Virus record (IMG/VR): IMGVR_UViG_2842363717_000002
Span: 14-64,013 of that record
Source: a virus
Strand: one strand, 5' to 3'
DNA length: 64,000 nucleotides
The notes beneath the pieces were generated by a model that was given only the letters and a program-made list of their open reading frames with translations, ran no database searches and was not told where the DNA came from. The translations under genes and the position numbers were made by a program. Of the stretch, positions 13,642 to 62,689 are shown in pieces (position 1 is the stretch's first letter; each line of letters begins with the position of its first letter).

Positions 13642-13642
13642 G

Positions 13643-46492: not shown

Positions 46493-46586
46493 CTTGTCTC
46501 CTCAGACTGTGGTGGATCATCCCGCGCGTTGGTGGCGCGCGGAGTGGTGTATGTTATGGTAGCTTGCACTCAACGAAAGGCTGGCG

Positions 46587-46883: not shown

Positions 46884-46887
46884 GCCA

Positions 46888-47616: not shown

Positions 47617-47960
47617 TCTGCGGCTCCCACCAGCGAACGAAGGCGAGCGATGGACGGCTCGACATGCCCATTCCAGTCGCGGATCAGGTCGTCAGTTTCG
47701 TCGTCTAGGTTGATCTCGTCGAGGCGAGCAAGCAGGAACTGCGCCTCGCCAGTGATAGATCCGAGCCTCTCCCGAAGTGCGGCTACCTCATAAGCCAGCG
47801 CAATATGCAGGTTGTCTGGTCCGCTATCGCGGAATGCCGGCCATTCATCGCCATAGCGAAGCGCCTCCCAATTGCCGGCATTCTTCTGTTGAATCGTGTA
47901 CTTGCCATCGTTCACGGTCACTGAAATCAGTCCGTCCTCGGCTCTTCTCTCGGTCATCAT
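47613..47960 (-). CDS. phage hypothetical protein
   Basis: GAGGAGAC RBS with CCAC motif. Confidence 0.65.
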   Translation of the reverse strand: MMTERRAEDGLISVTVNDGKYTIQQKNAGNWEALRYGDEWPAFRDSGPDNLHIALAYEVAALRERLGSITGEAQFLLARLDEINLDDETDDLIRDWNGHVEPSIARLRSLVGAAE

Positions 47961-48000
47961 CGTCTCCTCACGTGGTGTGGTTGTCGCGCTGGTTGGGCGC

Positions 48001-48501
48001 CTATGATTTCGCCCAAAGGGCAACGTCATCAAAATGCACTGGCGTAAAACCGATGCTTTCTACTGACATGTCGCGGTGGAACCCCTCGAGCCCCTCAAGG
48101 TTGCCGTGGACATGCCCATGCAAATTCTTGGTGCCGTGCCGCAACTGGTCCAATCGCATCGGAATGTGAGATGCAGTGAAACCTTCGTCACGGAATTGCC
48201 GCCACAGCGCGATGCGTTGAAAGATCCCCGCTGCTGCAAGAGACGGAATGTCATCGTGATTGCCGACAATTAGGCGGATAGCGCCGTTGAGCTTCGGACG
48301 TACGCGCTTTGCATCTTCTGTCTTCCAAGCGAAATCGCCTAGGTGATAGACGAGATCCTGTGGTTTTACCGCCGCGTTCCAGTTATCGATAATCGCTTCT
48401 TCCATTTCGCTCAGCGACGAAAACTGTGGCCTGCAATAGGTGATGATATTGTTGTGACCGAAGTGGGTATCACTGATGAACCATACATTTCTTGCCGTCA
48501 C
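48001..48501 (-). CDS. calcineurin-like metallophosphoesterase
   Basis: SDTHFGH, LGDF, GNHD, SHIP, HGHVH. Confidence 0.88.
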   Translation of the reverse strand: MTARNVWFISDTHFGHNNIITYCRPQFSSLSEMEEAIIDNWNAAVKPQDLVYHLGDFAWKTEDAKRVRPKLNGAIRLIVGNHDDIPSLAAAGIFQRIALWRQFRDEGFTASHIPMRLDQLRHGTKNLHGHVHGNLEGLEGFHRDMSVESIGFTPVHFDDVALWAKS

Positions 48502-48551
48502 TGGCGTCTCCTCACGTGGTGTAATTTGGTAGCTTCACCGTGGCGTCAATT

Positions 48552-48565
48552 TACAAATTTGTCAA
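48552..48565 (-). promoter_or_regulatory. TTGACAAATTTGTA motif (copy 6)
   Basis: 22 bp identical to copy 1 (ATTGACAAATTTGTAAATTGAC). Confidence 0.7.
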
Positions 48566-48567
48566 TC

Positions 48568-50313
48568 TCAGAACGGGATATCGTCGTCCAATTCCCACCG
48601 CTCCGCATAGCTGCGATTGTCGTTCGCAGGTGCCGGGACGTTGTCGTTGGCGGCGGTACGCGGCCCAACACGATGCGCCATGACATCGGGATATTTGGGA
48701 TTGCGCGCGTAATCGAGTTGGACTTCTACCGTGTCGTCGAGCTCGCCCTGTCGCTCGAGCCATTGCAACACAGTGGAAGGGAACGGACGGCTGCCACCAT
48801 GAGCCAACCAGTAGCGGTCAGCCTTGGTTTTTGGGTATCCCTTGTGCTCGCAGCACAGCCATTCATTTATCGATTTCATGCCCACGAGATAGGTGCACTT
48901 GACGGAGTCGACTTTTCCATCTTTCCCTGGGTGATGGCGGAAAGACCTCGATGACACTTCATACCAAGGCTTTTCCGTCGAAAGCACTGGTGTCTTGTCT
49001 GCGTGCGCCGTGATCTTCTCTTCCTCATTTGGCGGGAAGACGTAGCCGCAGCACTGGCATGTCATAATCGAGATCGGGATGAGCTCGCCGCAACCGCAAT
49101 TGCCATTCACGTCTGCGGTATCCTGTGGGCACTGCTTTTTCGGTTGTTCGCCAAGGCCCTTGCCAGGCTCACGCGGGCGAATCTGATCGATTGGCCCGTG
49201 ATAGGCTAGGTTGCGGCCGTGATCGGCAATGAGGCAATCGGTCTTGCCGGCGCAGTTGCGCGTTCCCCTTCCCAAAATCTGCACAAGCTTGCCAGGCGAC
49301 TTAGTCGACAAGATCAGGCTGATGAAATCGACGAACGGGAAGTTTGTGCCAGTCGTGATCATTGAGACCGACGAAATCGCCCAATATTTGCCAGAGCGGA
49401 AGCCTTCGAAAATCTCCTTGGTTTGGTGGGAGTTGTCGCTGGTCAGTACGGCACACGTCCTGCCGTGCCGGCGGATGGCATCTGCGACGTGGTTGGCGTT
49501 CTCCTTACTGGTGCTGAAGAATAGCCCCGCCCGCCGTCCTTCAGACAGTACCATGTCTTCTGCGACAGCCTCTTCGATGATTCGTTCGGCTGCTTCGGAA
49601 ATCTGGCCCGGGATATACTCGCCGCCGCGTGTGCCAACACCTTTGAGGTCGATCTTGCTGGTGGTTTTCTGGCTGGTGAGAGTCGTCAGGTAACCTTGCT
49701 CGATAAGCTCGCCGATGCCGATTTCATAGACGACATCATCGAAAAGCTTGAATTTGGCAGGTGCGCCGGCGGCAATAAGTTCGGGAGGCGTCTCATCATC
49801 ATCCAGGTCATCGGTCAGCCGACCGGAATCCATGCGATAGTCGGTCGCCGTGGTGCCGCAGGTTCGGCTGTCCGGATTGCGGGCGCGAACATCCTTGAAG
49901 AACTTGCCGTACTGCGTGTTGGCGTTGCGTGAAATGGCGTGCGCCTCATCGACGATGACGAGGTCGATATCGCCCAGCAGTTCAACCTTATTCCACACGG
50001 ACTGGATGCCGCAGAACAACACCTGTGCGTGCGCGTCGCGCCGCTTTAGGCCGGCGGAATAGATTCCCGCCGGCGCAAACGGTGACAGACCAATGAACTC
50101 CTTGAAGTTCTGCTCCACCAGTGGCGCCGAGTGCGTAACGTTGAGGATCCGCATGTCCGGATAATCGGCCAGCAACTCTTCTATCAGCTTGGCGATCACA
50201 AGTGCTTTTCCGGCGCCGGTCGGCAGAACGATCAAGCCGTTTCCGCCATCGTTGGCCCAATAGGCGTACAAGGCGTCTAGGCTGGCGCGTTGGTAGTCGC
50301 GGAGTTCAAGCAT
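48568..50313 (-). CDS. SF2 DEAH helicase (RadD/UvsW-like) with Zn ribbon
   Basis: LRDYQ, PTGAGK, VDEAH, TAT, QILGRGTR, KQCP..C.CCG. Confidence 0.9.
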   Translation of the reverse strand: MLELRDYQRASLDALYAYWANDGGNGLIVLPTGAGKALVIAKLIEELLADYPDMRILNVTHSAPLVEQNFKEFIGLSPFAPAGIYSAGLKRRDAHAQVLFCGIQSVWNKVELLGDIDLVIVDEAHAISRNANTQYGKFFKDVRARNPDSRTCGTTATDYRMDSGRLTDDLDDDETPPELIAAGAPAKFKLFDDVVYEIGIGELIEQGYLTTLTSQKTTSKIDLKGVGTRGGEYIPGQISEAAERIIEEAVAEDMVLSEGRRAGLFFSTSKENANHVADAIRRHGRTCAVLTSDNSHQTKEIFEGFRSGKYWAISSVSMITTGTNFPFVDFISLILSTKSPGKLVQILGRGTRNCAGKTDCLIADHGRNLAYHGPIDQIRPREPGKGLGEQPKKQCPQDTADVNGNCGCGELIPISIMTCQCCGYVFPPNEEEKITAHADKTPVLSTEKPWYEVSSRSFRHHPGKDGKVDSVKCTYLVGMKSINEWLCCEHKGYPKTKADRYWLAHGGSRPFPSTVLQWLERQGELDDTVEVQLDYARNPKYPDVMAHRVGPRTAANDNVPAPANDNRSYAERWELDDDIPF

Positions 50314-50675
50314 CAGGCGACATCCTTCTGTTTGGACGCCCATGCAGCCTTCCAGTCCAAGCTCCACCGAGTGCGGGCCTCGCGCACCGCCGTAACGCGA
50401 GCCTTGGCTGCGGCCGCCTCGGCCTCGCCCCGATCAGTCAGGAAATAGATCACGGCGCCCTTGCCGAATCCGATGCCGCTTGATTTGACCCATCCAGCGC
50501 GCACGCATTTCTTCCATGGCGCGCGCAACCACCGATCGCCCGGCTCCATCCGGCCGCAGAAGGTGCCGTCGGTGCGAACGAAGCCCGCCATAATCTGGTC
50601 AATATACGGGCTGTCTTTCGGAAGCGGCCGGCCCACCAGCTCCTCTGACCACGTCAGTTTTTTCTTCGCCATCAT
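50313..50675 (-). CDS. phage hypothetical protein
   Basis: Coupled ORF. Confidence 0.65.
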   Translation of the reverse strand: MMAKKKLTWSEELVGRPLPKDSPYIDQIMAGFVRTDGTFCGRMEPGDRWLRAPWKKCVRAGWVKSSGIGFGKGAVIYFLTDRGEAEAAAAKARVTAVREARTRWSLDWKAAWASKQKDVA

Positions 50676-51199
50676 GCCGCCTCCCGCTTCGTCTTCCGCC
50701 GCAGCGCCGTCAGTTCCTTCTCCTCAATCTGGCGAACGCGTTCTGCGGTAACGCCCAGGTCGGCGGCGATCACCGGCAAGGTCTCGCCCATGGCGCGACG
50801 AATGACCACGTCACCACCGCGCTCGCTCATGGCGGCCAGTGTTTGAGTGAGCTCGACATGATCCATCTGTGTCGGCAATGTGCCGCGCATCGCCATCAGC
50901 CTGCCTTCCGGATCATCGACAATCGCCAGGCGCCGCCGGGTCGCATCGCGCCGCAGGCTCAAGACGCCGCGCATGCTCCAATACATCCAGTTGTAAAAAC
51001 CACCATCCTCGCGGTAGCCGCGCCAGTTGCGCAGGCAATAGATGATCGTGTCGGTGACCAGATCCTCTCGCTCCTCGGCGTTACGCGTCAACTTGCGCGC
51101 CAGAGCCTCGAGGCCACGCTTATATTGCATGATGCGCGCGTCGAACTCCGGCGGCCGGCCCTCGGGGTTGTCATTCGCTGCTGTGTACTGATTGCTCAT
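50672..51199 (-). CDS. ECF-sigma-like protein 1
   Basis: LARKLTRNAEEREDLVTDT..F.NW; C-terminal GETLPVIAADLGVTAERVRQIE. Confidence 0.7.
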   Translation of the reverse strand: MSNQYTAANDNPEGRPPEFDARIMQYKRGLEALARKLTRNAEEREDLVTDTIIYCLRNWRGYREDGGFYNWMYWSMRGVLSLRRDATRRRLAIVDDPEGRLMAMRGTLPTQMDHVELTQTLAAMSERGGDVVIRRAMGETLPVIAADLGVTAERVRQIEEKELTALRRKTKREAA

Positions 51200-51672
51200 G
51201 CTGCCACCTGCATCAGACGGCCGCGTGCCAATTCCCGGCGCTGGCGCATTGCCTCTCGAGAGATGCCGCGTTCTCGCCCCATGTCTGTTAGCGTGTCGCC
51301 CATGGCCTCGCGAATGACCGCCTCGCCGTCGGGGATGGTGGAAAGCAGCGACAACACCCGGGACAACGTCGCTGCGTCATCCTGGTTCTGGATGGCACCA
51401 ACGCGGTAAGCCGCAGTCTCAGGCACGGTGACGCCGCAGCGCATGGCCTGCCGAGATTTGCGGATGTGGTTGCTGGCCGCTCTGCGGAGGATGATCTGCG
51501 CCCAGGTGCGGAACGTGCCCATGCGGCAACGATCGGCAAGGTGGAGCATGTCTGTCAGTGCATCCTGCAGAAGGTCTTCTGCGCGTGGGCCGGCCATATA
51601 TTTGGCCTGGCGCTTGAGGGAGGGAAGATATGCGGTAAGGGCGGCGTCGAAGCCGGGTGGCCGATCGGTCAT
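51196..51672 (-). CDS. ECF-sigma-like protein 2
   Basis: YLPSLKRQAKY..AEDLLQD..FRTW; GDTLTDMGRERGISREAMRQ. Confidence 0.7.
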   Translation of the reverse strand: MTDRPPGFDAALTAYLPSLKRQAKYMAGPRAEDLLQDALTDMLHLADRCRMGTFRTWAQIILRRAASNHIRKSRQAMRCGVTVPETAAYRVGAIQNQDDAATLSRVLSLLSTIPDGEAVIREAMGDTLTDMGRERGISREAMRQRRELARGRLMQVAA

Positions 51673-51715
51673 GGTTGTCTCCTCTTGTGGTGGTGATTGG
51701 CTGGTGAGGCCCGTA

Positions 51716-52261
51716 TTAGTTGTCGTTTGCGGCGATCATATTTTTAGCACTGTCTCGTCGGTTGCGGCGTTGCTCCTGCCCAGTAGCCCACCTGCAGTTG
51801 CTTGGCTCGTAATTTCCATCGTTATTGATGCGATCCAGCGTTAATCCGTGCGGCCGCTCACCCATGTCCTCTAGAAAATTGTCGAACAGGAACCATCTCT
51901 CGCAAACGCGTATGCCCCTGCCACCATATCGCTCGTAGTGAAGTTGATTTGAGTTTGTGCATCTCTCAATCATTCCTCGCCACGAGTTATAGGTCTTTGA
52001 TGGCCCACCCTGTCTGCTCGCGTTCCCGTGCGTTGCATTAGCTGCCGTTGGTCCTGCCAGCATACATCCACAAGACTGAACGCCTCCATATCGAAGGTCG
52101 CTGGTGCTTCCGACGGTGGATCGTCCACATTCACAAATGCACAGCCATGTCTTTCGAGTGCCTTTCTTTCCTGCGTATTCAATAACAGTGAGGCGTCCGA
52201 AGACGTCCCCAACTAGGTTTGGGTATTCTCTAGCCATTGCTTGGGATCTCATCTTTTCCAT
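51716..52261 (-). CDS. HNH-type homing endonuclease
   Basis: GDVFGRLTVI, WLCICECG, TYNSW..MIERC, TLDRINND.NYEPSNCRWAT. Confidence 0.85.
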   Translation of the reverse strand: MEKMRSQAMAREYPNLVGDVFGRLTVIEYAGKKGTRKTWLCICECGRSTVGSTSDLRYGGVQSCGCMLAGPTAANATHGNASRQGGPSKTYNSWRGMIERCTNSNQLHYERYGGRGIRVCERWFLFDNFLEDMGERPHGLTLDRINNDGNYEPSNCRWATGQEQRRNRRDSAKNMIAANDN

Positions 52262-53171
52262 CGACCCACGAACTACCGTCGTTGAGTACGTAGGTCACGG
52301 TTTCGTCTTCTTCGCTCGCGTCTACCTGAGTGCCGGGGACCAAAGATGGAATAAACAACTGAGCTGGACACCCTTCATCTTGCTCTGCCAGCGATAAAGG
52401 CTTGTTGTGCCTTGAGCAGTCCCATCCCGCATTGCCGTCCATGATAGGGGTGGAAAATAAGCATGTTCTGCAGTGGACTCTTGGCCATGCCTCCCCCCAG
52501 CATACCTCTGCCTGGCGGCAAAAAAGCCCACGAAAGTCATCGCGCTTGCTGCAAAGCCGACCGGGCGGCTCCGGCATGTTGATAATACGTTCGATCCTGG
52601 CGACTGCTCGCATAGCGTATTCCATGTCGAGCTCGACGCGTTCGAAATGCATGTCCTCGTCGTTTTTATTGGACATCATGTAGTAAACGCGATCGATGCC
52701 GAGACCGTACATGTAAAACTGGAATGTGGCGTAGTGCTTAGGCATCCCGATCTTGACGCCGTTCTTTTTCACCGGCTTGAAATACTCGTCTTTCGCTGAC
52801 TTGCACTCGACGACATGGATAGCTTTCGGAGCCTCCAAAATGCCAAGCGCCTGCCCGTCGATCTTGCCGCGGAGATGACCGCCGACGGCTCGCACTCGAT
52901 CCTGCTGGCCCCAGACTTCCACGCCGATCAGGCGCAACAGATCCAGAAGCCGTTCCTCCTCAATGTTGCCTCGTTCGAAGATGCGGCGCTTTTTCCATGT
53001 GATTACCTCTGGAATGGAAGCGCGGCGAAAAGCCAGCCAGATGGCGCGATCGCACTCCACGCCGATATCGCCCGCAGGCACGCCGACGGATTCCCAGTCG
53101 TCGCCTTGGGTTTCCAGCGAGTCCTGGATGGCGCGCTGGGTTGATGATGTTGGCTTGGGGATGGGTGCCAT
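52230..53171 (-). CDS. PD-(D/E)xK exonuclease (phage recombination, Cas4/YqaJ-like)
   Basis: C.RAIW..FR; GKIDG..VECKS; QFYM; C..C/CRTC. Confidence 0.75.
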   Translation of the reverse strand: MAPIPKPTSSTQRAIQDSLETQGDDWESVGVPAGDIGVECDRAIWLAFRRASIPEVITWKKRRIFERGNIEEERLLDLLRLIGVEVWGQQDRVRAVGGHLRGKIDGQALGILEAPKAIHVVECKSAKDEYFKPVKKNGVKIGMPKHYATFQFYMYGLGIDRVYYMMSNKNDEDMHFERVELDMEYAMRAVARIERIINMPEPPGRLCSKRDDFRGLFCRQAEVCWGEAWPRVHCRTCLFSTPIMDGNAGWDCSRHNKPLSLAEQDEGCPAQLFIPSLVPGTQVDASEEDETVTYVLNDGSSWVDGKDEIPSNG

Positions 53172-53462
53172 CTATGCAACGGCCACAGCAAACAACGGCG
53201 ACGTCGAGAGCGCCGACTGGTGGCCGCGAACGTCATCCTTGCGGATGTATGTGGTCCACAATTCCCTCCCATCGCGGGTTATTGGGTGCATCTCCTGGAT
53301 GTCAAACCTGACATCATCGATCTCATCTGCATCGATCTCAAAGTCATCTTTGTTGACCTCAGCCTCTATCTTCGCCTTCGCTGCATCAAGCGATTCGGCT
53401 TCGATTGTGCAACTGCTCCGACCTTGGAACGTGTAATCGACCATGAACTTTGCCATCGTCAA
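53172..53462 (-). CDS. phage hypothetical protein
   Basis: Coupled ORF. Confidence 0.6.
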   Translation of the reverse strand: MTMAKFMVDYTFQGRSSCTIEAESLDAAKAKIEAEVNKDDFEIDADEIDDVRFDIQEMHPITRDGRELWTTYIRKDDVRGHQSALSTSPLFAVAVA

Positions 53463-54517
53463 ATCCTGACCGGCATAAGGACGGCCAACAGCCCCTCAGC
53501 CTTATCAGACGTGAAGACCGCCGGCGAGCCGCTATCAGCCAGCGCCAACCTGATATCGCCAGCCGGGAAGATGCCAACGAGTTCGGTGAGGTACGCCGCA
53601 TTGAATCCGATATCGATCTTGTCTCCGTTATACGAGACGACGATTTCGTCAGATGCGCTGCCGCGCTCTGGGTTGCTGACATCCAACTTCCCTACGCCAT
53701 CCGCTAAGGACAGGCGTACGGCTTTGCCGCGCTCGGAAGACACGGCAGCAACTCGGCCAGCAGCCTGGCGCATGTCATCGCTGCCAAACGTCACGATCTT
53801 GTCGTTGGCGGTCGGAATGACGCGCTGATAGTCCGGGAACGTGCCGTCGATCAGTTTCGATGTGAGGATGAAGTCGCCGGCCGAGATGCGGATCTTGGAT
53901 TCGGAGACCGATACAGACACAACGCCCTTGGGAAGCAGGCCAACCGCCTTGCGGGGCACGATGACGCCGGTAAAGGCTGGAACGGCAGGGCCGGTGTGGC
54001 GAGATAGGCGGTGGCCGTCAGTCGACACGGCGACAACGGCGCCGTCATGAACGTGTAGGAACACGCCATTGAGGTAATAGCGCGTCTCTTCCGTGGACAT
54101 CGCAAACGCAACCGGCGCAAACAGCGAGGCGAGGTCGATCTCGAATGATGCATCATATGCTTTATCGCCGAACGTGGGAAAGTCCGCCGCATCGAGTGTG
54201 GACAGCTTAAACACGCTACGCCCTGATTTTATCTGGAGGCGATCACCCTCAAGGCTGATGGAAATATCGCCACCGGCCTTCTTGGCGATATCGGCGAGCA
54301 ACTTGGCGTCGACACAGACCGTGCCCGGCGTGGTAACGTCGGCCGGCGCAACATCGGTGGCGACGATATCAAGGTCGGTGCCGGTGACGTGCAGGCGGCC
54401 CTCTGCGGCGGAAAGCAGTACGTTGCCAAGGATGGGGATGGTGTTGCGGCTTTCGACGACGCGGCCGACGTTGGTCAGCACGCGCGCGAGGTCGGCCCGC
54501 TGGATGGTGAGTTTCAT
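53459..54517 (-). CDS. dnaN: DNA polymerase III beta sliding clamp homolog
   Basis: RNTIPILGNVL, TGTDL, ETRYYLNGV, STDGHRL, SKLIDGTFPDY, IGFNA.YL, VLMPVRI. Confidence 0.92.
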   Translation of the reverse strand: MKLTIQRADLARVLTNVGRVVESRNTIPILGNVLLSAAEGRLHVTGTDLDIVATDVAPADVTTPGTVCVDAKLLADIAKKAGGDISISLEGDRLQIKSGRSVFKLSTLDAADFPTFGDKAYDASFEIDLASLFAPVAFAMSTEETRYYLNGVFLHVHDGAVVAVSTDGHRLSRHTGPAVPAFTGVIVPRKAVGLLPKGVVSVSVSESKIRISAGDFILTSKLIDGTFPDYQRVIPTANDKIVTFGSDDMRQAAGRVAAVSSERGKAVRLSLADGVGKLDVSNPERGSASDEIVVSYNGDKIDIGFNAAYLTELVGIFPAGDIRLALADSGSPAVFTSDKAEGLLAVLMPVRI

Positions 54518-54575
54518 GGTGGTCTCCTCTTGGTGGTGGTGTGCCGCACGGTTGGTTGCCGTGCGGCGGTGGTGG

Positions 54576-54980
54576 TTAGGCTACAAAGCCTGCCGGCGTG
54601 ATGTACTCGCCGTTGCGCATTTCATGAAAACTCCACGTCTTGCCAGGATGAGCAGCGACCCAGTCTGATACTGCCTGCTCAATGGCATTTCCCAGAGACC
54701 GGTGCGGCTTATCGTATTCTGCCCAGGGATCGTCTGGACCGTCCTCGCCAAAGCATTCTTCGTTGCGTTCGGTGAGATCTTCCATGATGCGCTCGGCGTA
54801 TGCTTCACCGTCAACGTAGGCGGACATCACAGTCTTGTCGGCTTCGACGATGTAGAATGGCGCTCGGTCGTAATCGCCTGTGCCGACATGAATAGCCTCT
54901 TCTCTGCTATCGTATGGCCCGCTGAATATCTCCGCATCTTCGGAGTCCGACACCCACCATTTGAAATTCTTGTCGCTCAT
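54576..54980 (-). CDS. phage hypothetical protein
   Basis: GAGGAG RBS with CCACCAC. Confidence 0.7.
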   Translation of the reverse strand: MSDKNFKWWVSDSEDAEIFSGPYDSREEAIHVGTGDYDRAPFYIVEADKTVMSAYVDGEAYAERIMEDLTERNEECFGEDGPDDPWAEYDKPHRSLGNAIEQAVSDWVAAHPGKTWSFHEMRNGEYITPAGFVA

Positions 54981-55039
54981 TGTCTCTCCTCTAGTGGTGG
55001 AATGGCGGGCCGCTGGTGACGACCCGCCTTGTTATGCTG

Positions 55040-55666
55040 TTACTTCCGAGCGCCCCAAGGTTTCGACCCAGCCGGCTTTGCTGCCGCTGCGGCCGACGAT
55101 GCCTGGCGATTGTCATTTGCCGCGGGTGCGCGGTTGTCGTTGGCAGCAGCTGGCTCGTTGCGCTTCTTGCCCTGCGTGCCGTCGCCGATCACGCCGAGTT
55201 CCGGAACGGGCTCCTTGGCGCCTTCATGGGTGAAGAAGAACCGCTCAATCTGGTTCTTGTCCTTGTAGAAGGTGCCGTCCGGCTTTTTGTTGCCGATCTG
55301 GATGCCGATCTCGGCCGTGAACGACTTGAACAGCAGGTCATCCGTGTCGGTGTCGGCAGTGATTTCCTCGCCGACCGCATAGCCAAATCTGTCGAACATG
55401 GGCTTACCGTACTTGTAGGCACCGTGCTGGAAGCCGTCGGAGTGGACGATCGTCCAATAGGCCCAGAACTTGCGCTTGGCGAATTCGACGGGCTCGATCA
55501 CCTCGAAAGTGATTTCAGCCTGCCAGCCCTTCTTGTCCTGCGTTTCGGTGAGGTTGATCGCCTCGGCCTGGAGCTGCGCATACATGTGCGGCAGGATGCC
55601 ACCGCCGCCGCCCTGCTTCTCGGTGTTCTCGTAATCTGCTGCGTAGTTGTTGCCAATCTTGGCCAT
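55040..55666 (-). CDS. putative single-stranded DNA-binding protein (DUF669-like)
   Basis: Follows Sak4; OB-like core with tail ending KPWG; two ANDN copies. Confidence 0.65.
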   Translation of the reverse strand: MAKIGNNYAADYENTEKQGGGGGILPHMYAQLQAEAINLTETQDKKGWQAEITFEVIEPVEFAKRKFWAYWTIVHSDGFQHGAYKYGKPMFDRFGYAVGEEITADTDTDDLLFKSFTAEIGIQIGNKKPDGTFYKDKNQIERFFFTHEGAKEPVPELGVIGDGTQGKKRNEPAAANDNRAPAANDNRQASSAAAAAKPAGSKPWGARK

Positions 55667-55830
55667 GCTAGTCTCCTTCTGTGGTGGTTAGTTGGTGGCG
55701 GCGTAGTAGCGCCAAGGCGTGGTTGCCTTTGGCGTTACCGATCGTTCGCGGATGACGGTCTGCAGCCAGACCGTGCCGCTGTTGCGTGTTGTGACGGGGA
55801 ACCACGCGAACCAGCGTTCAGAGTGGAACA

Positions 55831-56640
55831 TTAGGCGTCATCATCCTCTACCGAAGCCTCAACCGGCAAGGCGTTGCGCTGGAAATAGAAGTCCAGCACC
55901 TTGAACCCCTCGCCGCGCTTGAACGGCAGGGTGGCTTTCTCGATTCCGTAGCGATTCCCGGCGATGAATCCCGGCCGTTCCTGAACGGCAATCATCATCT
56001 CGCCGCTGCCCTCGCCTCGGTTGTTGGTCTTCTTGAAGCCGGCGTCTTCCTTCTTGATCGATGTGCGCTGATGCAAGAAGCCGATGAGGTCTGCAGCGTC
56101 CACGATGACGCCGACAGCATCGTCGCGAAGGTTCGGCATATAACGCGGGTAGCTGTCTGTCGTGACGCCCGGCACGGTCTTGGACTTCACATGCGAAATG
56201 ATCACGACGTAGAAGCCGGCCTCCTTGAGGTCGAGCATCTTGCCGATGAACTCATGCCAGATGTCGAGCTCTGCAGCATAGCCTTTGCCGTAGCCTGGCT
56301 CTTCGATGTTCTTCCAGTTGTTGTCGGCGCAGACCTTCGCCCTGATCAGCTGCTCAAGGCCGTCGGCAGAGTCCAAGACATAGGTCTTACGGTCGTGCTC
56401 GTTGTCCGGATCGAGCAGCCAGTCAGCCTGATCCATGACGTCGGCGTAGCTTTCCGATACGCCGAATGACTTCATCACAACGCCAGCCGGCGCACGCTCA
56501 CCCTTGCCGGTTCTGACGTACAGCGGGCCAGGAAATTCGCTGGCTAGCGTTGTCTTGCCGGATTTTGCGCCGGCGTAGATGACGACGAAGGCCGGGTCGG
56601 TCTCAATCGTGTCTAGGGGAGCTTCCCAATTCAGTGCCAT
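55831..56640 (-). CDS. AAA_24/Sak4-like ATPase recombinase
   Basis: YAGAKSGKTTLAS, LDSAD, GYGKGY, AGNRYG. Confidence 0.85.
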   Translation of the reverse strand: MALNWEAPLDTIETDPAFVVIYAGAKSGKTTLASEFPGPLYVRTGKGERAPAGVVMKSFGVSESYADVMDQADWLLDPDNEHDRKTYVLDSADGLEQLIRAKVCADNNWKNIEEPGYGKGYAAELDIWHEFIGKMLDLKEAGFYVVIISHVKSKTVPGVTTDSYPRYMPNLRDDAVGVIVDAADLIGFLHQRTSIKKEDAGFKKTNNRGEGSGEMMIAVQERPGFIAGNRYGIEKATLPFKRGEGFKVLDFYFQRNALPVEASVEDDDA

Positions 56641-56736
56641 TCACGTCTCTCCTAAATATAGCAAACTGCGATGATGAGCAGGACGGCCAGGATGACTGGC
56701 CACCAGCTGAACGGATCGGGCGGCCACATGCCGGCG

Positions 56737-57012
56737 TCATTGCCCATGTGTGTCGATCGCCTCGATGAGTTTGTTCGTGCCCCACACGCAAAGGGAGACG
56801 AATGCGATGCCAATAGCGGAAAGCGCGACAACTGGCGCGAAGACGCCAACGCCTACCGCAACGGCCGCTACTACGCCGGCGATAGCGGCCCGACGAAGCG
56901 TTGGCGCCTTGAAGACCGTTGGCTTTCCGGGCTTGCTGACGGGCGCGTCGATCGGCACGTAGTCCAGCGGCGTGCGGGTGAGCGGCGGGTCGTTCCAGGG
57001 TGATCTGGGCAT
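56737..57012 (-). CDS. small 2-TM protein
   Basis: Hydrophobic C-terminal half; coupled. Confidence 0.55.
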   Translation of the reverse strand: MPRSPWNDPPLTRTPLDYVPIDAPVSKPGKPTVFKAPTLRRAAIAGVVAAVAVGVGVFAPVVALSAIGIAFVSLCVWGTNKLIEAIDTHGQ

Positions 57013-57200
57013 CAGAACACACCGAGCCAGACGCCGAAGCCGTGGACGACTCCAACCGGTGCGACGACACAACCGAAGGCGAGCAGCACCCATGCGCTTG
57101 CCTTGATGCAGACAATGACGTGCGTGATCCAAGCCGCCATTGCGGCGAGTAAGGCACCGGCGGCGAGAAAGAATGCCAAAATTCCAGCTGCTATTTTCAT
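57012..57200 (-). CDS. small hydrophobic membrane protein
   Basis: GAGGAGAC RBS; 2 TM segments. Confidence 0.65.
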   Translation of the reverse strand: MKIAAGILAFFLAAGALLAAMAAWITHVIVCIKASAWVLLAFGCVVAPVGVVHGFGVWLGVF

Positions 57201-57264
57201 AAAGTCTCCTCTTGCCGTGCGGTTGGTCGCCGCACGGCTTGCTGTGGTGGTGGCGTTGGTGGTG

Positions 57265-58416
57265 TTAGGCGGCGGCGCCGTACGGATATTCGACGAAGTG
57301 CTCGACGACATCCTTCGACTGCTTGAGCGGCATGCCAGTTACGGCACGCAGTTCCTTGATGGCATCGATTTTCTTGCCCTTGGCGGCAAGTCGCTGCCAT
57401 TCGTGCTTGTAGGTCGGCGCCGCTTCCTGGCTGGTGGTGGTCAGGACATAGACGCCGAACTGCTGGCCCTTATGCTTACCGGCGAGGCGGCTGGCCTCTG
57501 CTTTGGCGGCCGATTCGGTGGCGTGCACAAACGGCCGGCTGGATGGCTTCGGCTGGCCGTCTTCGATGAGGGCGACGATGGCGGTGGGAGTCGGTGCGGC
57601 CGGCGCGGGAACGGCTTCCGAATGGTAGAAATAAAGCAGCCCAACAGGCGATTTCAATTCGAACCCATCGTCATCTGATTTTTCGACGCGATGGACCCCG
57701 CCGACCGGTAATTCATCTTCGTAATCGGTGTGAATGATTTTTACCCAGTCACCAGCCCTGAACTTGGCCGGCGCCGCGTTGTCGTTGCTTGCCGTGGTGG
57801 TTGGCTCGTCGATCCATTCGGCGACGATGTCGTTCGCAAGTTCCGTCGTTGTGTCATCCCGCGTGGACTGACGGCCTGTGTCTGTCCACACCGCAGACGA
57901 CCAATTTCCTTTCTCGCCGAACGTAGTAGTTGACCCAGTCACGAACGCCGGCCCGACCTTGCGGCCGTCGCGCGTCTTGTAGAACTTGCCGGCCTCGAGT
58001 GCGAAGACGGGAAGCGGTTCGAAGCAGTCGATCGTGGCGCGCGTAAGGTTGCGCGGCGAGGCCATCGTTTCGTAATTGACCGGCGGATCGATATTTAGGA
58101 GGTACTCGCCGTTGTCGACCAACTTCCCGGACCAGGAGCTGATTGTGGCCGTCTTGCCGATCGCGCCGGTGGTGGATCTTGCGTCTTTGACGAGCCGTAC
58201 GCGATCGCCGACCTTCGGCTGCCACGGCTGCCACGGCTGCTCGACGAGCTCGAATCGGTAGGCGCTCATGCCACCTTGGCTGCCGTAATCCATATCAACC
58301 GTGATGAACTCGCCATCGTACTGCCTCACGACATACTCATTGCCGGCAGTAACGCATTTGGTGTTGTCGTCGTTAACGCACTTAACCCGATCCCCAACCT
58401 TAAACTTTCCCATCAT
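57265..58416 (-). CDS. modular protein with SH3-like repeats and C-terminal ribosomal L7/L12-CTD-like domain
   Basis: KFKVGDRV x3-like repeats; GKKIDAIKELRAVTGMPLKQSKDVVE. Confidence 0.65.
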   Translation of the reverse strand: MMGKFKVGDRVKCVNDDNTKCVTAGNEYVVRQYDGEFITVDMDYGSQGGMSAYRFELVEQPWQPWQPKVGDRVRLVKDARSTTGAIGKTATISSWSGKLVDNGEYLLNIDPPVNYETMASPRNLTRATIDCFEPLPVFALEAGKFYKTRDGRKVGPAFVTGSTTTFGEKGNWSSAVWTDTGRQSTRDDTTTELANDIVAEWIDEPTTTASNDNAAPAKFRAGDWVKIIHTDYEDELPVGGVHRVEKSDDDGFELKSPVGLLYFYHSEAVPAPAAPTPTAIVALIEDGQPKPSSRPFVHATESAAKAEASRLAGKHKGQQFGVYVLTTTSQEAAPTYKHEWQRLAAKGKKIDAIKELRAVTGMPLKQSKDVVEHFVEYPYGAAA

Positions 58417-58703
58417 GCTGCTCCTCTCGTGGTGGTGGTTTTGCGGAGCTTGCGCTCCTTGGTGAAGTCGATGACGTTGTCGTCTTCGGCGCCCGAAATG
58501 GCTGCGGCGTCCGGCGGGGGGATTTCGTCGTCATCGACCGCCTGCAGTTCCCATTCGTGGAACTGCAGAACATCCAGCGTCGGGCTGACGCGAATAATAA
58601 CGATGCTCCCCATGAACCCGATGACGATACCGAAAACGTTGGTGTTCATCCTGTGCTCGACGACGTCGCCGATCTCAATGCAGTCGCAATCAGGGCAACT
58701 CAT
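58413..58703 (-). CDS. phage hypothetical protein
   Basis: Coupled ORF. Confidence 0.65.
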   Translation of the reverse strand: MSCPDCDCIEIGDVVEHRMNTNVFGIVIGFMGSIVIIRVSPTLDVLQFHEWELQAVDDDEIPPPDAAAISGAEDDNVIDFTKERKLRKTTTTRGAA

Positions 58704-59050
58704 GCCGCCACCTGCAGATCTGCCAGGCCGGCGATCAGAAGCTCGCGCTCGGACGGCGCGACTTCGGCGATGTCGAGCGTTGGAATGCGCTGCACCGATA
58801 CTGGCATGATGCCGCTCGTCGTCGAGCAGCCGCCGTTGGACGGCACCATCCTGGTGACGGCGCGCGGGTTGTTGTCGTTCGCCGCGGCGATCGGAGAGTT
58901 CTGGTAATGTCCGAGGCCGTACTCGCGCCGCAGGCGCTGGTAACAGGTCATCGGCTTGATGTTGTATCTGGCTGCTATGGCGGCAACGGTCTCGCCGTTA
59001 AGTCTGCGCGCATGCATATCGGCCAGCATAGCGCTGGTAATCATGGTCAT
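58700..59050 (-). CDS. HTH protein, first gene of the early leftward operon
   Basis: GETVAAIAARYNIKPMTCYQRL; AANDN. Confidence 0.65.
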   Translation of the reverse strand: MTMITSAMLADMHARRLNGETVAAIAARYNIKPMTCYQRLRREYGLGHYQNSPIAAANDNNPRAVTRMVPSNGGCSTTSGIMPVSVQRIPTLDIAEVAPSERELLIAGLADLQVAA

Positions 59051-59118
59051 GTCGTCTCCTCTGTGGTGGGATTGGCAGGCGGTGAACTTGCCAATTGATG
59101 GTCATAATGTTATCGATT

Positions 59119-59132: not shown

Positions 59133-59147
59133 AGTATGGCGGCTATT

Positions 59148-59783
59148 ATGTCTTCACGCGGCACCCCCTCCAGAACGCGCTTCGCGCAGATGCTTGCGGC
59201 CGAGCAAATCAAGCGCGGCCAGACAGATCGCGAGGTGGCGGAAAACCATGGCTGGCTGCAGCAGACGTTCAGCCGGTGGAAGCTCGGAAGCCTGCCGCGG
59301 CAGCATATGTTCGCGTCGATCGCCAGCTTCCTGGAAACAGATGAGAACGCTGTGCGGGAGATGGTCGAGGAAGCGCAGGAAAGCGCCGCATCGACGAAGC
59401 TGCCAAACGTGGCCGCATTCAACGCTGCCCGGGTCTATGGTCGCGTGACCGACCGCAAGGACGGGAAGTATGTCTTTGACGCGTTCAACAAAGGCCGCAA
59501 GCGCATTCCTGACGGACGCTACGCCATCTTGATCGACACGAAAATCATGGAGCCGGCGCTGCCGGTCGGCACCAGGGCGTGGCTGGATCCGGCAATCTGG
59601 CCGTCGCCAGGCAATGAAGTGCTGGCCCACGCCAAGGGCGGAGCCGCGTGGATCGGCCGGCTCGTTGGTGTGTCCGGCACGTCCGCCGAGATCGAGCGCG
59701 GCGGATCGACGATGACGGTGCGTGATGTTGAAGGCGTGCATGTCATCGTCCTTTCCGAGCGCGTTGCGCGAATTAATGCTTGA
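59148..59783 (+). CDS. XRE/CI-like repressor with S24-like C-terminal domain
   Basis: QTDREVAENHGWLQQTFSRWKLG HTH; MEPAL..G..AWLDP. Confidence 0.75.
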   Translation: MSSRGTPSRTRFAQMLAAEQIKRGQTDREVAENHGWLQQTFSRWKLGSLPRQHMFASIASFLETDENAVREMVEEAQESAASTKLPNVAAFNAARVYGRVTDRKDGKYVFDAFNKGRKRIPDGRYAILIDTKIMEPALPVGTRAWLDPAIWPSPGNEVLAHAKGGAAWIGRLVGVSGTSAEIERGGSTMTVRDVEGVHVIVLSERVARINA

Positions 59784-59809
59784 CAAATTTGTAGAGTGTT
59801 TGGTAGACA
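59780..59809 (+). promoter_or_regulatory. TTGACAAATTTGTA motif (copy 8), promoter of predicted sRNA
   Basis: TTGACA-N18-TAGACA; overlaps the repressor stop codon. Confidence 0.65.
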
Positions 59810-59814
59810 CAATA

Positions 59815-59995
59815 CGCTGCTGTGGTGGCAGTAAGGAAATCCGGGTTCTGACGAGCGTCAGCTAGTCTCCTCCCCGAGATAGTACGAACCTTCATCCCTG
59901 AGCCGCTAAGCGGGTGGTGCCGGCCTTCGGGTCGGCTCAGAGGATGGGGTTAAGCAAAAAAGCGCCAGCCGGCGGTTAGCCAGCGGCGCTTTTCT
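59815..59995 (+). ncRNA. predicted phage sRNA with anti-RBS elements
   Basis: Promoter upstream, two multibranch domains, own terminator, no ORF. Confidence 0.6.
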
Positions 59996-59998
59996 TAT
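59954..59998. terminator. bidirectional intrinsic terminator
   Basis: AAAAGCGCC...GGCGCTTTT. Confidence 0.65.
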
Positions 59999-61174: not shown

Positions 61175-61268
61175 GCCACAACCATAGTTGACTTGCTTAT
61201 AATAATCGCTTATACAACTCCTCACCGCCGCATTTTACCGGGCGGGCACCACGTTGAGGAGACTTGCG

Positions 61269-61472
61269 ATGTTGAACAGAAGAGTTCTTGAGACCGACGA
61301 CGACTATTCCCCGGCAGGCTGCGCCGCCGGTAGCGCGGAGCCGATCCGCAAAGCAGACCATCGTGCCAAGAAGCATCCCCGCCCCGCGCCGCGCAACTTA
61401 GTTTGCCGCGGCCGCCTTGCGTCGCGCCACCAGAAGCCTGGTCGCGTGTTCGCCGAGATGGAGGTGGAGTGA
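61269..61472 (+). CDS. phage hypothetical protein
   Basis: CACCAC-GAGGAGAC RBS. Confidence 0.55.
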   Translation: MLNRRVLETDDDYSPAGCAAGSAEPIRKADHRAKKHPRPAPRNLVCRGRLASRHQKPGRVFAEMEVE

Positions 61473-61591
61473 TGGACAACTCTGGCTTTTCCATTCGCGA
61501 TTTCATCAAAGACCTGATCGGCGCCCTTTCGGCCGTCTCGTTCGTCGCAGCCGTTTCGATCTGGCTGCCGTATGTCGTGCAGCACCACTAA
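61472..61591 (+). CDS. small membrane peptide
   Basis: Coupled to the previous ORF; hydrophobic. Confidence 0.5.
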   Translation: MDNSGFSIRDFIKDLIGALSAVSFVAAVSIWLPYVVQHH

Positions 61592-61625
61592 CCCACACCA
61601 CATCACGCTAGAGGAGACTGAAACA

Positions 61626-62309
61626 ATGAAATTCGACATTTTGAACAGATTCAGCGGAGAAGTGCAGGTCTCTGCCGAGATCGATTGCGACGCAAATGCC
61701 CTTCCGTCCGTGAAGCTTGGCCTCGCGGTCAAATGGGCGATCAAGGAAAAGGCCGACCTGTACGGCGCCGACCTGCGCAGCGCCGACCTGTACGGCGCCG
61801 ACCTGCGCAGCGCCGACCTGCGCAGCGCCGACCTGTACGGCGCCAACCTGCGCAGCGCCAACCTGTACGGCGCCGACCTGTACGGCGCCGACCTGCGCAG
61901 CGCCGACCTGTACGGCGCCGACCTGTACGGCGCCAACCTGCGCAGCGCCAACCTGTACGGCGCCGACCTGGGCGAGGCGAAAAACGCTGAGCTACCGATC
62001 GCGCAAACTCGCATCTTGCCGGAAGGCAGCATCATCGGATGGAAGAAGTGCCAGAAAGGCGTCATCGTCAAGTTGCGTATTCCCGAGGAAGCAAAACGGT
62101 CCCATGCATTCGGCCGCAAGTGCCGCGCTGAATTCGCCGATGTGATCGAAGTAATCGGCGGCAATGTCGGCATCAGCATGCACGATTACAGCACCGAGTA
62201 CCGCGCCGGCCAGCGCGTGCTGCCTGACAAATTTGACGAGAACTGGATGGAGGAATGCGCCGCAGGCATTCATTTCTTCATCACCCGCATAGAAGCCGAG
62301 AACTACTAA
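61626..62309 (+). CDS. pentapeptide-repeat protein with conserved C-terminal domain (DUF5758-like)
   Basis: 14 A[DN]L(YG/RS) repeats; GRKCRAE..CAAGIHFF. Confidence 0.88.
   Translation: MKFDILNRFSGEVQVSAEIDCDANALPSVKLGLAVKWAIKEKADLYGADLRSADLYGADLRSADLRSADLYGANLRSANLYGADLYGADLRSADLYGADLYGANLRSANLYGADLGEAKNAELPIAQTRILPEGSIIGWKKCQKGVIVKLRIPEEAKRSHAFGRKCRAEFADVIEVIGGNVGISMHDYSTEYRAGQRVLPDKFDENWMEECAAGIHFFITRIEAENY
61752..61970 (+). repeat. 15-bp tandem repeat array (14.6 units)
   Basis: GCC[GA]ACCTG followed by TACGGC or CGCAGC. Confidence 0.9.
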
Positions 62310-62416
62310 TTCAAATTGCCCGACGGGCAATGGGCGCGGTCGGTGATGATGGCTGCAACTTTCGTTTCCGTACCGCGCCCCAACCAATTCACCAACCACC
62401 ACAAAGGAGACCAAGC

Positions 62417-62689
62417 ATGACCACCAAGAGAAGACAGGCACCAGCCAACAGCAACCGCCTGCAGCCGACACGGCCAAGCAATTACGAGTTCATGCCTTAC
62501 ACCGGAACCGGCACTGAGGTCGTCGACGATCTCACCATTGGCGCGGCGCCCAGTTGGCGCCTGCTGCAAATCGCGCGCTGGCATGATGCAAAGCACGCCG
62601 GCCGCAACGGGCGGATAGCCAATACGCTGCGCCACGTGGCTGGGCGGCAGGATGATGCGAGGGCTGCGGCGCAGGCGGTGGCGGCATAA
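62417..62689 (+). CDS. phage hypothetical protein
   Basis: CCACCAC-AAAGGAGAC RBS. Confidence 0.6.
   Translation: MTTKRRQAPANSNRLQPTRPSNYEFMPYTGTGTEVVDDLTIGAAPSWRLLQIARWHDAKHAGRNGRIANTLRHVAGRQDDARAAAQAVAA

What the first reader, a model, noticed from the sequence alone, without database searches (positions are those of the whole stretch)
59780..59998. Predicted phage sRNA complementary to both halves of the shared CCACCAC-GAGGAGAC translation-start motif: candidate RNA-based global repressor
Seen: promoter copy 8, about 150 nt without an ORF, then a terminator. The RNA has UGUGGUGG near its 5' end (59821-28), AGUCUCCUCCCC in a hairpin (59864-75) and GGGUGGUG (59912-19), whose GUGGU is unpaired in a multiloop closed by CAUCC-CUGAG/CUCAG-GGAUG. 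These are the reverse complements of CCACCACA and GAGGAGAC, found together before about 19 phage genes. Known: P1 c4 and P4 CI are structured antisense immunity RNAs that use two separate loops, and alphaproteobacterial cuckoo sRNAs expose CCUCCUCCC anti-SD loops. Inferred: one trans-acting RNA silences translation of many lytic cistrons through a phage-specific bipartite address, which would be an undescribed multi-target immunity layer.
Basis: partly seen in the sequence, partly recalled or inferred. Interest (0 to 1): 0.85.

Follow-up and report, generated by a model that had tools for sequence, protein, structure and literature searches.

The report
Phage small RNA matching its own ribosome sites
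A conserved, structured small RNA of 16-3-like temperate phages of rhizobia displays three short sequences that are complementary to, and co-evolve with, a phage-private motif at the translation start of about 19 of the phage's own genes, so it is most likely a new RNA-based global brake on phage translation.

Summary
Window 59816-59996 (+) is a promoter-to-terminator, non-coding, about 180-nt RNA gene in the immunity region of a 16-3-like rhizobial prophage, directly downstream of a repressor-like gene. It has no Rfam match. It belongs to a family found in more than 40 viral contigs, seven or more Rhizobiaceae genomes, and the cultured phages 16-3, RHph_TM3_3_14B and RHph_X2_25.

The helices covary (88% of cells paired, 28 of 32 pairs with two-sided changes). 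The conserved parts are unpaired: two GUGGUG hairpin loops and GUCUCCUC.

Their complements, CACCAC(A) and GAGGAGAC, lie together before 17-19 start codons in the window (0.16 expected by chance). In host genomes this motif is almost confined to the prophage. Sixteen of 17 near-complete motif-rich viral records carry the RNA.

A second RNA variant has the three motifs in a different order. In diverged lineages the anti-SD segment changes together with the start-site motif: GUCUCUCC with GGAGAGAC, CUCCUCGUGU with ACACGAGGAG, GUAGCUCCUC with GAGGAGCUAC.

Pairing is therefore strongly supported. Repression, and especially a role as immunity in the lysogen, remain inferred. I rate it a new variant of a known kind, of high interest.

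The parts
59780..59809 (+). Promoter of the sRNA: -35 TTGACA (59780-85, overlapping the TGA stop of the upstream repressor-like gene), palindrome ACAAATTTGT (59783-92), extended -10 TGG-TAGACA (59801-09).
   Evidence: TTGACAAATTTG and TGGTA are invariant in the 4-phage alignment and in most of the 34 loci. It is one of 8 exact copies in the window. The simple sigma-70 scan did not flag it because the -10 ends in A.
59816..59996 (+). Predicted sRNA transcript, about 180 nt. The 5' end is inferred from promoter spacing and the 3' end from the terminator U tract.
   Evidence: Covariance model R1 scores 142.7 bits over 59812-59964. There is no Rfam family. MFE is -81.4 kcal/mol, z = -2.69. G.U pairs in H1 and H3 fit the + strand only.
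59816..59832 (+). Hairpin H1. The 7-nt loop UGUGGUG (59821-27) is complementary to CACCACA.
   Evidence: All six stem pairs are 99.5-100% paired and 5 of 6 show two-sided changes. The loop is kept where the closing pair changes to A-U. Loop unpaired probability reaches 1.0.
59839..59880 (+). Domain H2. A long stem (AUCCGGG / CCCGAGAU) encloses a variable inner hairpin and the unpaired anti-SD segment GUCUCCUC (59865-72).
   Evidence: The stem covaries: 7 of 8 pairs show two-sided changes. UCCUC has unpaired probability 0.9-1.0. Its complement AGGAGAC occurs in 12 of 91 start regions, against 0.45 expected.
59880..59887 (+). Conserved single-stranded UAGUACGA between H2 and H3. Its role is unknown.
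   Evidence: (U)AGUA(C/G)G is nearly invariant in the alignments. No complement is enriched in start regions.
59893..59946 (+). Domain H3. The outer stem CAUCCCUGAGCCG/CGGCUCAGAGGAUG encloses the small hairpin CGG[GUGGUG]CCG (59911-22, loop 59914-19) and the hairpin GCC[UUCG]GGU.
   Evidence: The small hairpin is 100% paired with compensatory changes, and the GUGGUG loop is invariant in 38 of 38 homologs, including those found without that requirement. The outer stem has 11 of 12 pairs with two-sided changes.
59962..59996 (+). Intrinsic terminator (stem 59962-89, U tract 59990-96). It is bidirectional: an A tract lies upstream and it also reads as a terminator on the - strand.
   Evidence: Terminator scan, - strand entry 59985..59963. 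MFE fold. Equivalent hairpins occur in homologs.
59137..59783 (+). Repressor-like gene (homolog of 16-3 p070), directly upstream of the sRNA. It has no CACCAC-SD motif at its own start.
   Evidence: PHROG 4, transcriptional repressor, E 7e-7. The TM3_3_14B homolog is annotated as an S24 peptidase/repressor. The sRNA lies directly downstream in all 8 loci that extend far enough, and also where the protein is only 33-34% identical, next to variant 2. Start region shown.
59048..59068 (-). Target site 1: CACCACAGAGGAGACGACATG, start of the cro-like HTH gene (58700-59050), the first gene behind the early promoter at 59132.
   Evidence: HTH hits.
46490..58437 (-). Early-region target sites, each CACCAC..GGAG(AC)..ATG: 58414-37 (383-aa protein), 57198-57253 (hairpin between the halves), 55664-86, 54978-99, 54515-41 (DNA polymerase processivity factor), 51670-95 (sigma-factor-like), about 48499-48522 (GTG start, phosphoesterase), 47958-77, 46490-46514 (helicase).
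   Evidence: Protein names from PHROGs.
6319..39437 (-). Further target sites: 39414-37, 39108-31, 31873-95 (major head protein), 13955-82, 10410-33 (protease), 6319-42.
   Evidence: PHROGs.
61247..62419 (+). Target sites in the operon to the right of the C-repressor gene: 61247-71, 61596-628 (pentapeptide-repeat protein), 62397-419.
   Evidence: Pfam.

Best explanation
Window 59816-59996 (+) encodes a trans-acting, base-pairing small RNA of 16-3-like temperate phages of Rhizobiaceae.

The RNA folds into three domains. They present two GUGGUG hairpin loops and one unpaired GUCUCCUC. The motif-bearing translation-initiation regions of the phage carry the contiguous complement, CACCAC(A)-N0-6-GAGGAGAC, 3-8 nt before the start codon.

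Proposed mechanism: one loop docks on CACCACA and the anti-SD segment then pairs over the Shine-Dalgarno sequence. The nearest-neighbour energies are about -9 and -13 kcal/mol, against about -9 for the 16S tail on the same SD. The 30S subunit is shut out, and the mRNA may also be exposed to RNases.

Some 17-19 cistrons share this address: the cro-like gene, replication genes, a sigma-like factor, the major head protein, a protease and others. The two repressor genes lack it. One RNA could therefore damp the whole lytic programme and spare lysogeny functions.

Shown here: the RNA family, its structure, the exposed conserved seeds, the phage-specific motif, co-occurrence, and co-variation between RNA and targets.

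Inferred: transcription, the direction of the effect (repression), and the timing. My preferred timing is a threshold filter. The RNA would be made from its own promoter and as the 3' end of the repressor-like gene's transcript. It would titrate leaky or incoming motif-bearing mRNAs, which stabilises lysogeny and hinders superinfecting phages that share the address. A role as a feedback brake during lytic growth is nearly as likely.
For: - Conserved element: a blastn hit seeded by the neighbouring gene aligns four diverged phages. The islands of invariance are the promoter, CUGUGGUGG, GUCUCCU, UAGUA.GA and GUGGUG.
- Family size: 33 true loci in IMG/VR; 7 Rhizobiaceae genomes; 6 more divergent copies among 151 family genomes.
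- Structure: 88.2% of cells paired, 28 of 32 pairs with two-sided changes, 0 of 500 shuffles as good, and slid controls at 38-57% paired.
- Strand: G.U pairs fit only the + strand.
- Seeds exposed.
- Only the three seed regions have complements enriched in start regions.
- Motif: 21 matches against 0.16 expected in the window; 11-17 per related phage, with reversed-pattern control 0.
- Motif private to the phage: in three 5-8 Mb host genomes, 10 of 12, about 10 of 15 and 6 of 15 hits lie inside the one sRNA-bearing prophage.
- Co-occurrence: all near-complete motif-rich records but one carry the RNA. Two apparent absences are contig-end or split-assembly artefacts.
- Variant 2 has the order GGUCUCCUCU .. 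CUCUGUGGUGG .. CGG[GUGGUG]CCG. It sits at the same genomic position and extends the pairing across the junction CCACCACAGAGGAGAC.
- Co-variation between RNA and targets: G061 has GUCUCUCC in the RNA and GGAGAGAC at its start sites; G145 has (GU)CUCCUCGUGU and ACACGAGGAG(AC); G065 has GUAGCUCCUC and GAGGAGCUAC. The cross-matrix is diagonal-dominant, for example 17/14/11 own sites at 8/9/10 nt or more against at most 5 at 9 nt or more elsewhere.
- The motif is kept even inside the coding end of an upstream gene.
- Neither repressor gene start has the motif.
- Duplex energies.
Against: - There are no expression data, so the transcript ends are inferred, and the -10 is non-canonical.
- The sRNA promoter belongs to the same 8-copy class, with a shared palindrome, as the promoters of its targets. 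It may be repressed in the lysogen together with them, which weakens the 'immunity' reading.
- G001, an unrelated complete provirus, has 10 or more CCACCAC-SD start sites and no detectable RNA. The upstream half-motif may therefore have a function of its own.
- In lineage G172 the match between RNA and start sites is weak.
- Co-variation of the H1 loop with the targets is only suggestive.
- The three motifs were required in the pattern scans, so their invariance in those loci is partly by construction.
- The third hairpin has only 3 bp.
- A full-length duplex-energy ranking was uninformative.
Confidence: 0.68

Rival explanations
1. The RNA and the pairing are the same, but the RNA is not an immunity factor. 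It is made together with its targets during lytic development, from the same promoter class. There it acts as a negative-feedback brake or timer, for example to shut off early proteins or cap expression, as the T4 RegA protein does for early mRNAs.
For: The sRNA promoter shares TTGACAAATTTGT and its palindrome with seven mRNA promoters, including the early promoter at 59132, and the same holds in relatives. The targets include both early and late genes.
Against: The RNA gene is fused to the 3' end of a repressor-like gene. That gene's own promoter is of the same class, which is the position of lysogen-expressed functions. Both repressor genes escape the motif. There are no data on timing either way.
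Confidence: 0.3
2. The RNA acts mainly in cis. Transcription from its promoter, together with the bidirectional terminator, collides with and is antisense to rightward-promoter (Pr-type) transcripts. These come from the C-repressor region and head for the early genes. The match to start sites would be a by-product, for example if the RNA arose from captured antisense copies of start sites.
For: In 16-3 the annotated Pr points through p069 towards the sRNA and p070 on the opposite strand. In the window, - strand terminators lie at 60085-60064 and 59985-59963.
Against: This does not explain why exactly the three seed segments stay constant while scaffolds, motif order and promoters change. It does not explain why the anti-SD segment tracks lineage-specific start-site flanks. 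It does not explain why the helices covary so as to keep the seeds unpaired. X2_25 has the RNA without an adjacent C-repressor gene.
Confidence: 0.08
3. The RNA is a protein-binding RNA. The GUGGUG loops would act as a sponge or scaffold for a phage or host RNA-binding protein. The CACCAC element of the mRNAs would be an independent translational enhancer or standby site.
For: Two near-identical loop motifs on short hairpins resemble protein-titrating RNAs of the CsrB type. G001 shows CCACCAC-SD sites without the RNA. C/A-rich leaders are known translation enhancers (general knowledge).
Against: A sponge would carry the same sequence as the mRNA site, not its complement. The anti-SD segment co-varies with start-site flanks, and variant 2 extends complementarity across the junction. 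No candidate protein was identified.
Confidence: 0.05
4. There is no functional RNA. The region would be a DNA-level element, such as operators or a recombination boundary sequence, or plain intergenic DNA with chance complementarity.
For: No expression data are available. Mosaic phages share boundary sequences (general knowledge).
Against: Helices are kept through compensatory changes, including G.U pairs that fit one strand only. The promoter and terminator are conserved. Enrichment statistics argue against chance. Position and content are conserved in more than 40 loci.
Confidence: 0.03

Closest known systems
P1/P7 c4 antisense RNA (immI region)
   Same: It is a phage-encoded, structured RNA in an immunity region. 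It uses two separate exposed sequences to pair with two sites around a ribosome-binding site and so blocks translation (general knowledge; summarised in PMC12197685).
   Different: c4 is cut from the operon it controls and has essentially one target, icd-ant. Here the RNA has its own promoter and about 19 dispersed targets that share an address motif. There is no sequence or structure similarity: no Rfam C4 hit.
Alphaproteobacterial cuckoo (alpha-r14 family) sRNAs and NfeR1
   Same: They are sRNAs of the same host group that expose C/U-rich anti-SD motifs (CCUCCUCCC) and repress many mRNAs at the RBS (general knowledge; NfeR1 papers listed). The window RNA contains CUCCUCCC.
   Different: Those are chromosomal or plasmid host sRNAs with anti-SD motifs in hairpin loops, and they target host transport and metabolic mRNAs. 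This RNA has one anti-SD segment plus two GUGGUG loops, and its targets are the phage's own genes through a motif that host genes lack. No Rfam family scored at E 10 or better except two unrelated weak hits.
Phage trans-acting sRNAs VpdS (VP882) and PreS (lambda); P22 sar; lambda OOP
   Same: They are phage-encoded base-pairing RNAs that influence the lysis-lysogeny decision or phage replication (PMC12197685).
   Different: Their targets are host genes, or one or a few phage genes with idiosyncratic sites. None is described as using a repeated start-site address across the phage genome, and none comes from rhizobiophages (the review has no 'rhizob' mention).
T4 RegA translational repressor (a protein)
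   Same: It works alike in outline: one phage-encoded factor recognises a shared feature of many phage start sites and represses their translation (general knowledge).
   Different: RegA is a protein. Here recognition would be by RNA-RNA pairing.

Membership tests
Trans-encoded base-pairing sRNA that occludes ribosome-binding sites | Independent transcription unit: own promoter and Rho-independent terminator, non-coding | tested here: met
   A conserved -35 and extended -10 and a terminator hairpin with U tract are present. Indels among homologs exclude coding. Transcription itself was not observed.
Trans-encoded base-pairing sRNA that occludes ribosome-binding sites | Conserved single-stranded seed region(s) within a covarying scaffold | tested here: met
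Trans-encoded base-pairing sRNA that occludes ribosome-binding sites | Complementarity to the SD/start region of several mRNAs encoded elsewhere, beyond chance | tested here: met
   (21 matches against 0.16 expected). Phage-specific in host genomes.
Trans-encoded base-pairing sRNA that occludes ribosome-binding sites | Seed and target co-evolve | tested here: met
   Lineage-specific matched changes occur in G061, G145 and G065. G172 is weak, and the H1 loop evidence is only suggestive.
Trans-encoded base-pairing sRNA that occludes ribosome-binding sites | Repression of target translation; chaperone (Hfq/ProQ) dependence | not testable with these tools
   Needs reporters, toeprinting, and RIL-seq or MAPS.
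P1/P7 c4-type immunity RNA (Rfam C4 antisense RNA) | Match to the family covariance model | tested here: not met
   No hit at the gathering threshold in the window, nor at E 10 or better in 59600-60200.
P1/P7 c4-type immunity RNA (Rfam C4 antisense RNA) | Processed from, and targeting, its own operon upstream of an antirepressor gene | tested here: not met
   The RNA has its own promoter, and its targets are dispersed over 6-62 kb of the window. No ant-like gene was identified next to it.
Cuckoo / alpha-r14 sRNA family | Match to the Rfam models; several hairpins each with CCUCCUCCC in the loop | tested here: not met
   No Rfam hit. There is a single anti-SD segment, it lies in an internal loop, and its CCCC is paired.

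The most novel reading that the evidence does not exclude
A temperate-phage lineage has given its own lytic genes a private translational 'address' (CACCACA-GAGGAGAC) that host genes lack. It encodes one small RNA, riding behind a repressor gene, that reads this address with three seeds and can silence the whole lytic programme after transcription. Because mosaic relatives with different repressors share the address, the RNA would also give cross-immunity against heteroimmune superinfecting phages. That would be an RNA-level immunity layer independent of operator specificity, and RNA and address would co-evolve as a lock-and-key pair.
Probability: 0.35. Interest if true: 0.88.

Novelty: new variant of a known kind. 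Interest (0 to 1): 0.8.

Why it matters
Phage-encoded sRNAs are only now being catalogued. The known ones hit host genes or one phage operon. This would be the first case I can find in which a phage marks many of its own cistrons with a dedicated start-site motif and controls them with one RNA.

It bears on how lysogeny is kept quiet despite leaky transcription. It also suggests a kind of superinfection immunity that does not depend on repressor-operator specificity.

It gives a clean natural example of co-evolution between an sRNA and its target motif across lineages.

It is directly testable in cultured, harmless systems: 16-3 in Sinorhizobium meliloti Rm41, and RHph_TM3_3_14B in Rhizobium etli.

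It could also offer an orthogonal RNA switch for translation control in rhizobia.

Tried and rejected
- Full-length RNA.duplexfold ranking of 91 start regions was dominated by G+C-rich terminator pairing and did not separate motif sites. I replaced it with the 7-mer profile and longest-complement matrices. RNAup, IntaRNA and R-scape are not installed.
- Hammerhead idea: CUGACGAG at 59851 is not conserved in homologs and Rfam gives no hit.
- Reading the - strand as a leader, put-like or nut-like element of the Pr transcript: rejected because G.U pairs and the promoter and terminator orientation fit the + strand.
- Small ORFs in the region (47 aa on +, 40 aa on -): rejected because of indels among homologs.
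- 16-3 C-repressor operator geometries ACAA-N4/N6-TTGT do not occur near the window's promoters. The shared palindrome ACAAATTTGT is therefore not that operator; its binding protein is unknown.
- In G001, a hairpin with a UGUGGUG loop at about 62851 (-) looked like a third variant. It lies inside long ORFs and is probably the antisense of a start site.
- The immX paper (PMC165751) is not held, so I could not check whether 16-3 p070/p071 correspond to the genetically defined immX cistrons.
- The genome contigs pattern scan returned mostly chance hits in high-G+C genomes: 50 of 57 were rejected by the covariance model.
- blastn with the sRNA alone finds only TM3_3_14B in the phage collection. 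Sequence search alone under-detects the family.
Full report
**Setting.** The window is an IMG/VR provirus record of 64,231 bp. Its genes lie mostly on the - strand. The closest cultured relatives around the finding are Rhizobium phages RHph_TM3_3_14B, RHph_X2_25 and 16-3.

The finding lies in the immunity region. A cro-like HTH gene (58700-59050, -) opens the early operon behind a promoter at 59132. Diverging from it is a repressor-like gene (about 59137-59783, +; homolog of 16-3 p070; PHROG 4). Then comes the candidate RNA, then two terminators that also read on the - strand, a small - strand ORF (the p069 position), and the homolog of the 16-3 C repressor (60431-61174, HTH plus peptidase S24).

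**The observation.**
- The promoter-like TTGACAAATTTGT is one of eight exact copies in the window, and six to eight copies occur in each relative.
- The start-site motif is real and far beyond chance. CACCAC-N0-12-GGAG-N3-12-ATG matches 21 times at 17 sites, against 0.16 expected. Two more sites have a GTG start or an inserted hairpin.
- I scanned every 7-mer of the RNA against 91 upstream regions.
- Rfam has no family for the region.

**Is it an RNA gene?** Yes, as far as sequence comparison can show.
- A blastn hit that was carried by the neighbouring protein gene let me align four diverged phages without any bias towards the motifs. The invariant islands are the promoter (TTGACAAATTTG, TGGTA), CUGUGGUGG, GUCUCCU, UAGUA.GA and GUGGUG.
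- A pattern scan found 34 IMG/VR loci, one of them false. A covariance model (R1) confirmed 7 of 57 pattern hits in GTDB genomes. Six are named Rhizobiaceae (Rhizobium, Sinorhizobium, Agrobacterium, Shinella) and one is an unclassified Proteobacteria MAG. The model also found six more divergent copies in a sample of 151 genomes of the family.
- On the model-guided alignment of 38 copies, 88% of cells pair, 28 of 32 pairs show two-sided changes, no shuffle reaches this, and slid controls fall to 38-57%. That alignment is fitted to the model, but the plain MAFFT alignment gives the same picture.
- G.U pairs in H1 and H3 would be C.A on the other strand, so the + strand is the RNA.
- The gene always sits directly after the p070-like gene: 8 of 8 loci that extend far enough. 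Its -35 overlaps that gene's stop codon.

**Anatomy.**
- H1 (59816-32) shows UGUGGUG in a 7-nt loop.
- H2 (59839-80) is a long covarying stem. Its large loop holds a variable hairpin and the unpaired GUCUCCU(C).
- A conserved UAGUACGA follows.
- H3 (59893-946) holds a 3-bp hairpin with a GUGGUG loop.
- A terminator closes the RNA.
- The seeds are predicted to be accessible.

**Link between the RNA and the start-site motif.** Five lines of evidence support it.
1. Relatives with the RNA have the motif: 11-17 hits each, reversed control 0.
2. The motif is private to the phages. In three host genomes of 5-8 Mb, most hits fall within the one prophage of about 60 kb that carries the RNA, and the rest look random.
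3. I sampled viral contigs by the motif alone, using two exact words. Sixteen of 17 near-complete motif-rich records have the RNA. Two apparent absences are artefacts: one contig ends 39 nt into the RNA, and another is a second contig of an assembly whose RNA lies on a different contig.
4. A second architecture (variant 2, four contigs) sits at the same position behind a p070-like gene of only 33-34% identity. It carries the same three motifs in a different order, GGUCUCCUCU .. CUCUGUGGUGG .. terminator-loop GUGGUG. The first two extend pairing across the junction of CCACCACAGAGGAGAC.
5. In diverged chromosomal copies the anti-SD segment and the start sites of the surrounding prophage have changed together: GUCUCUCC with GGAGAGAC (G061), (GU)CUCCUCGUGU with ACACGAGGAG(AC) (G145, two copies), and GUAGCUCCUC with GAGGAGCUAC (G065). 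A cross-matrix of longest complements is diagonal-dominant. One lineage (G172) is weak, and H1-loop co-variation (GGUGGUA with UACCACC) is only suggestive.

**Mechanism.** The simplest reading is translational repression. A loop-to-linear contact forms at CACCACA and a duplex forms over the SD. The duplex energy is -12.8 kcal/mol for GUCUCCUC:GAGGAGAC, against -9.3 for the 16S tail on the same site. The targets include the cro-like gene, a processivity factor, a helicase, a sigma-like protein, the major head protein and a protease. Both repressor genes lack the motif. The motif is maintained even where it lies inside the coding end of the preceding gene (58414-37).

**What is not settled.** The sRNA promoter is of the same class as the promoters of its targets and carries the same palindrome (ACAAATTTGT, often extended to 16 bp). 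This is probably an operator for an unidentified protein. It is not the 16-3 C operator geometry. The RNA may therefore be co-regulated with its targets, as a threshold or timer, rather than being constitutive in the lysogen. Against that, it would also be the 3' end of the repressor-like gene's transcript. One unrelated, complete provirus (G001) has ten or more CCACCAC-SD start sites but no such RNA, so the upstream element may have a function of its own that this RNA exploits.

**Comparison with known systems.** It works like P1 c4 (two exposed sequences against an RBS) and like alphaproteobacterial anti-SD sRNAs, and in logic like the T4 RegA protein. It is a member of none of these (see the membership table). 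A 2025 review of phage sRNAs lists nothing from rhizobiophages and no RNA with a repeated address on its own genome. Full-text searches found no earlier description. The region is unannotated in the GenBank records of 16-3 and TM3_3_14B.

**Verdict.** The RNA is real as a conserved structured element (about 0.9). Pairing with the start-site motif is strongly supported (about 0.8). Repression is likely (about 0.68). A role specifically as lysogenic immunity is open (about 0.35). It is a new variant of a known kind and of high interest.

Noticed in passing
window 10503-10515, 27938-50, 36995-37007, 39165-77, 39470-82, 48553-65, 59120-32, 59780-92: There are eight exact copies of TTGACAAATTTGT. 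The core ACAAATTTGT is a perfect palindrome, often extended to a 16-bp near-palindrome over the -35. It is probably a shared operator that makes one regulon of most phage promoters, including the sRNA's. Six to eight copies also occur in 16-3, TM3_3_14B and X2_25. At 59117-32 it serves two back-to-back promoters.
   Followed up: partly
window 59137-59783 and 60431-61174: Two repressor-like genes lie in tandem on the same strand, one p070-like and one a C-repressor homolog with HTH plus S24 domains. Each faces a leftward transcription unit. Two bidirectional terminators (59962-89, 60064-85) and a 61-aa - strand ORF (60164-60349) lie between them. This looks like a double switch whose logic is not described for 16-3.
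   Followed up: partly
window 57265-58416 (-): An early 383-aa protein gives a weak hit to the C-terminal domain of ribosomal protein L7/L12 (E 2.5e-5, just under the Pfam cut-off). The X2_25 homolog is annotated the same way. This is curious in a phage that seems to regulate its own translation.
   Followed up: no
window 57200-57253 and 54539-54575 (-): The same small hairpin (GCCGUGCGGC..GCACGGC, in either orientation) lies between or next to the CCACCAC and GAGGAGAC halves of two start sites. It may be a small repeated intergenic element that would bring the two halves together.
   Followed up: no
window 51196-51672 (-): A sigma-factor-like gene (PHROG 1740) has a motif-bearing start site. 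16-3 has three genes annotated as sigma-like. This suggests a phage-encoded transcription cascade under the proposed RNA control.
   Followed up: no
window 26448-26515 (-), 37558-37712 (-): Rfam finds an int-alpA RNA and two tRNA genes inside the prophage.
   Followed up: no
G001 = IMGVR_UViG_3300001473_000094 (loci L088-L091), 53-61 kb: This is an unrelated 68-kb provirus (60% G+C, no protein similarity to the window). It has a cluster of start sites of the form CCACCAC(A)G(A)GGAG.. and no detectable sRNA. The CCACCAC leader element may therefore be more widespread than the RNA.
   Followed up: partly
window 61572-62309 (+): A pentapeptide-repeat plus DUF5758 protein is encoded next to the C-repressor gene, as in TM3_3_14B. 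It may be a lysogen-expressed accessory or defence gene, and its start site carries the motif.
   Followed up: no
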